Positions 4,865 through 5,313 of a DNA stretch of 64,000 nucleotides are shown in pieces (the first letter of the stretch is position 1; every line of letters begins with the position of its first letter). Both the position numbers and the translations under genes were made by a program. The notes beneath the pieces were generated by a model. It ran no database searches. It saw only the letters and a list, made by a program, of their open reading frames with translations, and had not been told where the DNA came from. The DNA lies in the NCBI GenBank assembly GCA_964016885.1, contig OZ024745.1, positions 129,456,001-129,520,000 of the forward strand, read 5' to 3'. Source of the DNA: Eledone cirrhosa (taxonomy: Eukaryota).

Positions 4865-5103
4865 GCATGCTACTGTACGTCTGTATACATATATGTATGT
4901 ACGTATAGATACATACTTACATTTAAGTAAGTGCCGTACTAAGAGGGAGAAATGAAATTTCGTTTTCATTTTATTACAACTTATCGTTTTCGGTAGGCCT
5001 GGCTGATTTAAATCACTCGATATGCAAATTAGGCTGCTCAGCCGTTAATTTTCATAAGGAAAGTATATACTTTCGAACGTTCAACCATCTGGCAGAAGGG
5101 TAT

Positions 5104-5146
5104 ACGGTGCTGATGATAGCTAACAAGCTTGAAACTAGTACATCGT
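5104..5146 (+). ncRNA. Type I hammerhead ribozyme (family C)
   Basis: ACGGTG-CTGATGA-T-AGCT-AACA-AGCT-T-GAAAC-TA-GTA-CATCGT; helix I ACGGTG/CATCGT extended by CTGGCA/TGTCAG and GTTCAAC/GTTGAAC; palindromic helix III ACTAGT; predicted cleavage after 5140. Confidence 0.88.
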
Positions 5147-5313
5147 TCCTGTGTCAGTGTTGAACAAAAAGGTGACGTGGTTGCCTTAACACCGTACGGC
5201 ATAAATTCAGGCTGTTCAGTTTGTTTACAAACGAACAAAGCGGGCGTTATAATAAGCGTCCGCTAAACTGATACGTGCATATATGTATGTGTACCTGTAT
5301 GTATATATATATA

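What the first reader, a model, noticed from the sequence alone, without database searches (positions are those of the whole stretch)
5078..5165. Covarying HHR architecture shared by families A and C: U.U at the base of stem II, AAYR loop II, UAU bulge in stem I
Seen: A reads GGA-TAT-GTGGTC-core-T-TTCT-AACG-AGAA-T-GAAAC-GC-GTA and C reads GGG-TAT-ACGGTG-core-T-AGCT-AACA-AGCT-T-GAAAC-TA-GTA. Helix sequences differ but pair, while the bulge, loop and non-canonical T.T (where G10.1-C11.1 is usual) are kept. The 60.6-kb copy changes N7, one loop base and a G.T to A-T pair, and gains one helix I mismatch. Established: natural HHRs use loop II/stem I tertiary contacts. Inference: selection on catalysis and a distinct HHR subtype.
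Basis: partly seen in the sequence, partly recalled or inferred. Interest (0 to 1): 0.7.

Follow-up and report, generated by a model that had tools for sequence, protein, structure and literature searches.

The report
Ordinary retrozyme hammerhead, swappable U·U pair
This is one of about 43,000 genomic copies of a predicted self-cutting hammerhead RNA carried by small jumping repeats; its bulge and loop are the standard animal design, and its odd U·U pair is already known from axolotl and is swapped for other pairs in sister families, so it is likely a slowed ribozyme of a known kind that works in pairs, not a new subtype.

Summary
Across 18 copies from about eight families, 89.5% of cells pair and 15 of 17 pairs change on both sides. 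The 'distinct subtype' is not supported. The bulge, U1.7 and the six-base loop II match Rfam's HH9 consensus. U·U at the base of helix II is published for axolotl HHR_Amex2 (PMC7229834). Of 60,612 genomic motifs of this layout, 43,300 have U·U, 9,356 the canonical G-C and 7,956 other pairs such as A-U, C·A or A·A. Families A and C themselves have non-U·U sublineages. The finding did not name the palindromic helix III, whose inner pair can form only between two ribozymes and pairs in 18 of 18 rows. Best reading: a type I hammerhead of non-LTR retrozymes, likely dimer-dependent and slowed by loss of G10.1, mobilised by a Penelope-type enzyme (47 of 47 back-to-back arrays have one long and one short end). 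The scan had already noted the two-armed insertions and A-to-G marks on other DNA of this genome. Cleavage is untested.

The parts
5098..5150 (+). Type I hammerhead of retrozyme family C. Internal loop 5101-5103; helix I 5104-5109 with 5141-5146; core 5110-5116 and 5131-5134; U10.1 5117 and U11.1 5130; helix II 5118-5120 with 5127-5129; six-base loop 5121-5126; palindromic helix III 5134-5139; predicted cut after A17 (5140); unpaired U1.7 at 5147
5079..5165 (+). Predicted extension of helix I (5079-5085 with 5159-5165; 5089-5094 with 5152-5157) carrying the ribozyme at its tip
   Evidence: circular fold
4694..5486 (+). Plus arm of the family C insertion (unit about 500-550 bp here, including a TA microsatellite), ending at the 'long' end in TA-rich repeats
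4200..4695 (-). Minus arm of the same insertion, back to back with the plus arm, ending at the 'short' end; holds an identical hammerhead at 4456-4508
11861..12663 (.). Family A insertion (310-bp unit): minus arm 11861-12176 with the long end, plus arm 12173-12663 with the short end; hammerheads at 12016-12068 (-), 12174-12226 (+), 12484-12536 (+)
60567..60619 (-). Older family C hammerhead (its element is about 82% identical to the 5.1-kb one), inside a single-arm copy at 60320-60797

Best explanation
This is a type I hammerhead motif inside a very abundant non-coding tandem repeat (a non-LTR retrozyme), and it likely cuts its own RNA slowly and mainly when two copies pair up. Shown: the three-helix fold covaries across many repeat families; the core, U1.7 and the last A of loop II are kept; helix III is a single pair around a palindrome; position 10.1·11.1 is U·U in most copies but G-C, A-U, C·A or A·A in others. 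Inferred mechanism: (1) read-through transcription of tandem arrays gives multimeric RNA; (2) two neighbouring ribozymes form a six-pair helix III through their palindromes and dock loop II on the helix I internal loop, cutting after GUA to release unit-length RNA; (3) monomers are ligated into highly structured circles, in which a lone ribozyme lacks a stable helix III and, without G10.1 as a metal ligand, would cut slowly; (4) a Penelope-type reverse transcriptase/endonuclease primes at two fixed internal sites from both ends of a break in a TA microsatellite, giving back-to-back arrays with one long and one short end. U·U is best read as a tolerated, probably rate-lowering state of a variable position, not as the mark of a subtype.
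For: Covariation: 89.5% of 306 cells paired against 64.5 in shuffles and 31-48 in slid controls; helix III inner pair U-A 9, A-U 5, G-C 4 in 18 of 18 rows although it cannot close within one strand. A one-pair helix III costs about 5 kcal/mol in a monomer, while the palindromes form duplexes of -4.8 (C) and -7.5 (A) kcal/mol. Small palindromic helix III and dimer activity are described as typical of metazoan type I motifs (PMC4209133). Axolotl HHR_Amex2 with U·U cut 22% in one hour as a monomer and much better as a dimer (PMC7229834). G10.1 N7 is a metal ligand and 7-deaza substitution lowers the rate about 30-fold (PMC6961537). Tandem units of 310 bp (A) and 419-538 bp (C), 34-36% GC; circular folds z -3.9 to -11.1 for 8 of 8 monomers. 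Family A ends fall 139 or 165 nt past the cut site; 47 of 47 divergent neighbour pairs have one of each. The two-start 'tail' signature is described for Penelope-like elements (PMC11167929; PMC8557442). A 714-aa open RT/GIY-YIG-type frame occurs in the genome.
Against: No cleavage, circle or rate was measured. In a recent preprint only 1 of 9 Xenopus retrozyme dimers cut in vitro (bioRxiv 10.64898/2026.07.22.740005), so a good-looking motif can be inactive. In an in vitro Penelope system hammerhead cleavage was not needed for insertion (PMC11167929). Family F keeps G-C with the same weak helix III and still has about 9,000 copies in long young arrays, so loss of G10.1 is not required for success. 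The one intact Penelope-type family I examined shares nothing but microsatellite with the retrozyme units in the first 40 rows printed. The 18 rows are related and were chosen by me, many after a filter for helix I pairing, so the shuffle counts are not probabilities.
Confidence: 0.72

Rival explanations
1. A distinct hammerhead subtype in which U·U, the AAYR loop and the UAU bulge form one co-selected module with its own chemistry or geometry.
For: U·U is the majority state, 43,300 of 60,612 motifs, and occurs in families A, C and D, although A and C share no detectable similarity outside the ribozyme. It is kept in 63 of 65 C loci.
Against: The same bulge and loop occur with G-C (9,356 motifs), A-U, C·A and A·A. 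An A-U lineage of family A, 99% identical to the U·U one, makes up 11 of 49 arrays. The Rfam HH9 consensus has the same layout. U·U is published in axolotl.
Confidence: 0.1
2. Position 10.1·11.1 simply drifts: the tertiary contact makes it nearly neutral, and U·U is common only because two U·U founder lineages happened to amplify.
For: At least five states occur in separately amplified lineages. Copy counts reflect few founders, not independent events. The direction of change in C is unresolved. Changes at G10.1 and C11.1 are also reported in cricket satellites (PMC2837043).
Against: G10.1-C11.1 is called highly conserved in canonical and Penelope hammerheads (PMC4209133). In young family A arrays 6 of 9 recurrent variant sites lie in the 53-nt ribozyme of a 310-nt unit (rough P 0.0013; sites are linked), more like tuning than drift.
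Confidence: 0.35
3. The motif no longer cuts and is kept as a structured tag read by the mobilising enzyme or ligase.
For: Two weakened helices at once. Predicted circular folds put parts of the core in other pairings. Cleavage was dispensable for Penelope insertion in vitro, and 8 of 9 Xenopus dimers did not cut.
Against: All catalytic residues, the UH cleavage triplet and a dimer-only helix III are kept across families whose helices differ. Units are copied at exact unit length into long tandem arms.
Confidence: 0.1

Closest known systems
Axolotl HHR_Amex2 and HHR_Amex1 of non-LTR retrozymes (Cervera and de la Pena 2020, PMC7229834; text parts 2-4 of 6 and passages read, supplement not readable)
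   Same: Type I hammerhead in 330-350-bp tandem repeats at tens of thousands of copies. Amex2 has a U·U mismatch at the base of helix II; Amex1 has a one-pair helix III capped by a palindromic tetraloop; both work better as dimers.
   Different: Families A and C combine both weak features in one motif, and sister families in the same genome carry G-C, A-U, C·A or A·A at that place. I saw only the text, not the figure sequences, so I could not compare loops letter by letter.
Canonical metazoan type I hammerheads (Schistosoma type; Rfam Hammerhead_HH9, RF02275; PMC4209133, PMC6155905, PMC11875169, passages)
   Same: Six-pair helix I, internal loop with unpaired U1.7, 14 bases between A9 and G12 with a six-base loop ending in A, small palindromic helix III.
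   Different: G10.1-C11.1 is replaced in about 85% of the motifs counted here. Rfam scores are far below the HH9 cut-off of 52 bits: 17.6 (C), 14.3 (A), 32.9 (G-C family F).
Penelope-like elements and their insertion signature (PMC11167929, PMC8557442, passages; bioRxiv 10.64898/2026.07.22.740005, parts 1-3 of 5)
   Same: Tandem and inverted arms, a short 'tail' at one end only, insertion into TA microsatellites, type I hammerhead.
   Different: No coding frame; full-size hammerhead with tertiary module rather than the minimal type; no homology found to the one intact Penelope-type family tested.

Membership tests
Type I hammerhead ribozyme | Conserved core CUGANGA, GAAA and UH | tested here: met
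   Core positions unchanged in 63-65 of 65 C loci chosen by outside anchors; N7 is C 41, U 24; H17 is A 62, U 2, C 1
Type I hammerhead ribozyme | Helices II and III closed, helix I open, with covariation | tested here: met
   15 of 17 pairs change on both sides in 18 rows
Type I hammerhead ribozyme | Loop II / helix I tertiary module (unpaired U1.7, last loop A) | tested here: met
   U1.7 and loop A2, A3, A6 invariant in alignment A1; U1.7 in 115 of 117 distinct filtered motifs; the contact itself is inferred
Type I hammerhead ribozyme | G10.1-C11.1 pair (usual, with a published U·U exception) | tested here: not met
   U·U in this copy; G-C in 9,356 of 60,612 genomic motifs; exception in PMC7229834
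Type I hammerhead ribozyme | Site-specific self-cleavage | not testable with these tools
   Needs transcription assays
Rfam Hammerhead_HH9 (RF02275) | Score at or above 52 bits | tested here: not met
   17.6 bits for this copy, 14.3 for A, 32.9 for F; no other hammerhead family listed for A or C
Non-LTR retrozyme | Short tandem repeat (about 150-450 bp), low GC, one type I hammerhead per unit | tested here: met
   A 310-311 bp, D 314, F 469-471, C 419-538 (often above the range because of an inner microsatellite), GC 34-36%
Non-LTR retrozyme | Non-coding | tested here: met
   Frames of 100 aa or more over the two insertions are microsatellite-derived
Non-LTR retrozyme | Expressed as linear and circular monomer RNA | not testable with these tools
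   Only contigs of runs of unrecorded kind were available
Non-LTR retrozyme | Target-site duplications larger than 4 bp, when present | not tested
   Both ends lie in TA repeats, which hides duplications
Penelope-mobilised non-autonomous element | Inverted tandem arms with a tail at one end, in microsatellite | tested here: met
   A: 47 of 47 divergent pairs long plus short. C: 18 of 19 clean two-ended divergent loci, out of 66 examined
Penelope-mobilised non-autonomous element | Sequence shared with the terminal repeat of an autonomous element | tested here: inconclusive
   Only microsatellite matches to 8 loci of one intact family, first 40 rows seen; other families not tested
Proposed new subtype (U·U + AAYR + UAU) | Features fixed together and absent from known hammerheads | tested here: not met
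   PMC7229834; HH9 consensus

The most novel reading that the evidence does not exclude
Position 10.1·11.1 is an evolvable rate dial. Competing retrozyme lineages in one genome have repeatedly given up the metal-binding G10.1-C11.1 pair (about 85% of 60,612 motifs) and keep changing non-core ribozyme bases faster than the rest of their sequence, because a slow, dimer-gated cut releases monomers yet spares the circular template. The genome would then hold a natural allelic series linking ribozyme rate to transposition success.
Probability: 0.3. Interest if true: 0.62.

Novelty: new member of a known kind. Interest (0 to 1): 0.36.

Why it matters
The ribozyme itself is ordinary. Its value is as a test set: near-identical natural lineages with U·U, A-U, C·A, A·A or G-C at a position usually called highly conserved allow a direct test of whether retrozymes are selected for slow cutting, and of how circles avoid re-cutting themselves, a question left open in PMC7229834. 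Standard Rfam scanning misses these motifs at its cut-off, so such families may be under-counted. My searches found no paper describing cephalopod retrozymes, but the library is partial.

Tried and rejected
Rfam scan of the whole window: the best 150 of 363 rows were microsatellite artefacts, mostly miRNA models. The repeat finder on the whole window was swamped by TA repeats. My first count of canonical pairs (524) required a UAY bulge and suggested G-C was about 1%; allowing UAA gave 9,356, so I dropped that figure. Tree of 41 of 151 available C and F segments: C·A/C·C copies form a supported group (97/91), but F hangs on a long branch inside the youngest C group, so whether U·U is ancestral or derived in C is not resolved. 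The first end-mapping of C was noisy from microsatellite hits and its output was cut; it was redone with motifs, where 47 of 66 loci gave no clean two-ended call. Expression: no RNA holder listed; run X4 laid nothing. A simple 'edited only in RNA' reading of the A-to-G at 12236 was rejected because 781 genomic copies carry G. Pfam found nothing in the 714-aa frame or the window fragment, PDB nothing meaningful; the Penelope label rests on motifs I recall and on Atlas neighbours with HTH_animal, GIY-YIG and RVT_1 on part of their members. Martick and Scott 2006 and one review were not held. The supplement of PMC7229834 could not be read and may show further invertebrate hammerheads with mismatched 10.1·11.1. 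R-scape is not available; the count of structure pairs was used instead.

Full report
1. Observation. The two strings are in the window as described. The family C motif spans 5098-5150, with an identical copy on the minus strand at 4456-4508 and an older copy at 60567-60619 that differs at 6 of 53 places. Family A has three copies, two of them 310 bp apart. A loose core pattern gives 15 hits in the window against 1.35 expected. The window lies in a 3.0-Gb animal genome rich in TA repeats; that it is octopus-like is my recall of its repeats and the wording of earlier scan notes, not a result of mine.

2. Anatomy. Numbered as a hammerhead, both motifs have a six-pair helix I, a 3x1 internal loop opposite an unpaired U1.7, 14 bases between A9 and G12, and a helix III of one pair around a four-base palindrome, with GUA before the predicted cut. 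Rfam's HH9 consensus, printed, has the same layout: a UUAC bulge, six pairs, a CAAAAA loop and U at 1.7. Passages of PMC11875169 and PMC6155905 describe the conserved Hoogsteen contact between U1.7 and the last loop A, and PMC4209133 describes helix I of six pairs, helix II of four and a small palindromic helix III needing a dimer as the usual metazoan design. The bulge and loop are therefore canonical.

3. Genome-wide picture. A pattern fixing the bulge, core and loop but leaving 10.1 and 11.1 free has 60,612 matches, control 5. Of these 43,300 are U·U, 9,356 are G-C and 7,956 are other. The listings and loci show at least seven families with this module and different helices: A (310-311 bp; U·U or A-U), D (314 bp; U·U or A-U), C (419-538 bp; U·U, C·A or C·C), F (469-471 bp; G-C), E and E2 (A·A), and older G/H copies. 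A and D share 75% over 155 nt and C and F are distantly alike, but A and C match only in the ribozyme. These counts are copies, many in tandem arrays, not independent events.

4. Is the fold selected? In 65 independent family C loci picked by anchors outside the ribozyme (66 found, one with an indel left out), core positions are unchanged in 63-65; common variants fall at N7, loop position 4 (U 37, C 26, G 2), the third bulge base (U 55, A 10) and one helix I pair (G·U 35, U·G 14, A-U 11, other 5); 10.1·11.1 is U·U in 63 and C·A in 2. Contigs of run X1 show the same variable sites among the 40 best-supported differences, 16 more not shown. In an ungapped alignment of 18 chosen copies, 89.5% of 306 cells pair, against 64.5 for shuffles and 31-48 for slid structures; 15 of 17 pairs change on both sides; 10.1·11.1 is the weakest pair, unpaired in 13 of 18. 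The inner pair of helix III, which cannot close in one strand, is U-A, A-U or G-C in 18 of 18 rows. Rows are related and pre-filtered, so this is strong but not a formal P value. Families D and E, with longer helix III, were left out of this alignment.

5. Is U·U special? [quoted passage not shown] Here it is common but exchangeable. Among 49 family A arrays chosen by their ends (54 loci, 5 without a full unit), 11 carry A-U. Recurrent variants in these young arrays fall at 9 sites, 6 of them in the 53-nt ribozyme (rough P 0.0013; the sites are linked, and my unit-finding expression fixed several core letters, so absence of core change in A is partly by construction). G10.1 binds a catalytic-site metal through N7, and removing that atom lowers the rate about 30-fold (PMC6961537), so U·U likely slows cutting; this is inference. 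Against a need for slowing, G-C family F is young and abundant. The direction of change is unresolved.

6. Host element. The units are non-coding, 34-36% GC and fold strongly as circles, z -3.9 to -11.1 with 30 shuffles each; these are the marks of non-LTR retrozymes. In those folds parts of the core often pair elsewhere, but the program ignores tertiary contacts. Multi-copy C loci are back to back in 13 cases, face to face in 1 and same-strand in 6. Family A arms end 139 or 165 nt past the cut site and run into TA repeats; genome-wide there are 1,105 long and 805 short ends, and among the first 100 long and 83 short ends on contig 1, 47 of 47 divergent neighbours within 10 kb are one long plus one short, with 3 other neighbour pairs. 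C ends fall near 251 and 310; 18 of 19 clean two-ended loci have one of each, out of 66. Both insertions in this window follow the rule. Two internal start sites bounding a 'tail' are the shown behaviour of a Penelope-like enzyme (PMC11167929), and inverted arms, a one-sided tail and microsatellite targets are typical of the group (PMC8557442). An open 714-aa frame with RT-like and GIY-YIG-like motifs is present in many copies, but it is not shown to be the partner. A 2026 preprint already argues that animal retrozymes derive from Penelope-like elements, and the scan had noted the two-armed pattern on other DNA.

7. Mechanism. Shown: fold, conservation, dimer-type helix III, variable 10.1·11.1, two-ended insertions. 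Inferred: multimeric transcripts are cut by paired ribozymes, whose palindromes give duplexes of -4.8 and -7.5 kcal/mol where a lone one-pair helix costs about 5; monomers are circularised; lone ribozymes in circles cut slowly; a Penelope-type enzyme copies them from both ends of a break. Untested: any cleavage, any circle, any rate effect of U·U.

8. Verdict. Observation confirmed; selection on a hammerhead fold supported; distinct subtype not supported. It is a new member of a known kind. Searches for hammerhead with octopus, retrozyme with cephalopod and mismatched 10.1/11.1 variants found no description of these families, but the library is partial and the key supplement was unreadable. 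The remaining interest is the natural series of 10.1·11.1 states, which makes the question of deliberately slow retrozyme ribozymes easy to test. Papers seen: PMC7229834 parts 2-4 of 6 and passages; bioRxiv 10.64898/2026.07.22.740005 parts 1-3 of 5; passages only of PMC3088659, PMC4209133, PMC6155905, PMC11875169, PMC6961537, PMC11167929, PMC8557442 and PMC2837043.

Noticed in passing
window 12173-12500 (family A unit); loci L284, L299-L308: Possible A-to-I editing written back into DNA. In run X5 (kind not on record) all 11 listed differences are A>G (7) or T>C (4), none with a 5' G on the changed strand; run X6 holds one 340-nt contig that goes round the 310-nt unit with A>G at 12236. That G is also in 781 genomic copies, as whole arrays, on four different haplotype backgrounds. 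A hint only: no matched DNA and RNA.
   Followed up: partly
L270 (G000:C1:136724900-136725920): Two neighbouring family A units in one arm carry different haplotypes, suggesting template switching or a mixed multimeric template.
   Followed up: no
window 47103-47459 (+): Fragment of a GIY-YIG-type endonuclease frame of a Penelope-like element; its relatives include a young family with open frames of 713-715 aa, some as inverted pairs.
   Followed up: partly
window 7022-7045 (+): Another hammerhead-like motif with a different helix II and a palindromic six-base helix III; no second copy in the window.
   Followed up: no
window 14021-14142 and 62160-62301: Short fold-back repeat family with a hammerhead-like core whose helix II resembles family A but is two bases shorter; also seen beside a Penelope-type locus, L257.
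   Followed up: no
window 50903-50944, 61566-61594, 49239-49256, 9834-9872: Further loose hammerhead-core matches, not examined.
   Followed up: no
window 29188-32190 (-), 20431-22029 (+), 33800-34314 (+): Long open frame with AP-endonuclease and RT motifs (LINE-like; label recalled) and other LINE fragments.
   Followed up: no
run X5 on window 4925-5275: Family C subfamily make-up differs sharply from run X1: the variant type of the 60.6-kb copy (C at N7, A at helix I pair 3) dominates, and depth peaks over the ribozyme.
   Followed up: no
G000:C1:95621693-95658856 and C1:5738332-5752438: Very long arrays of the 466-471-bp G-C family F.
   Followed up: no
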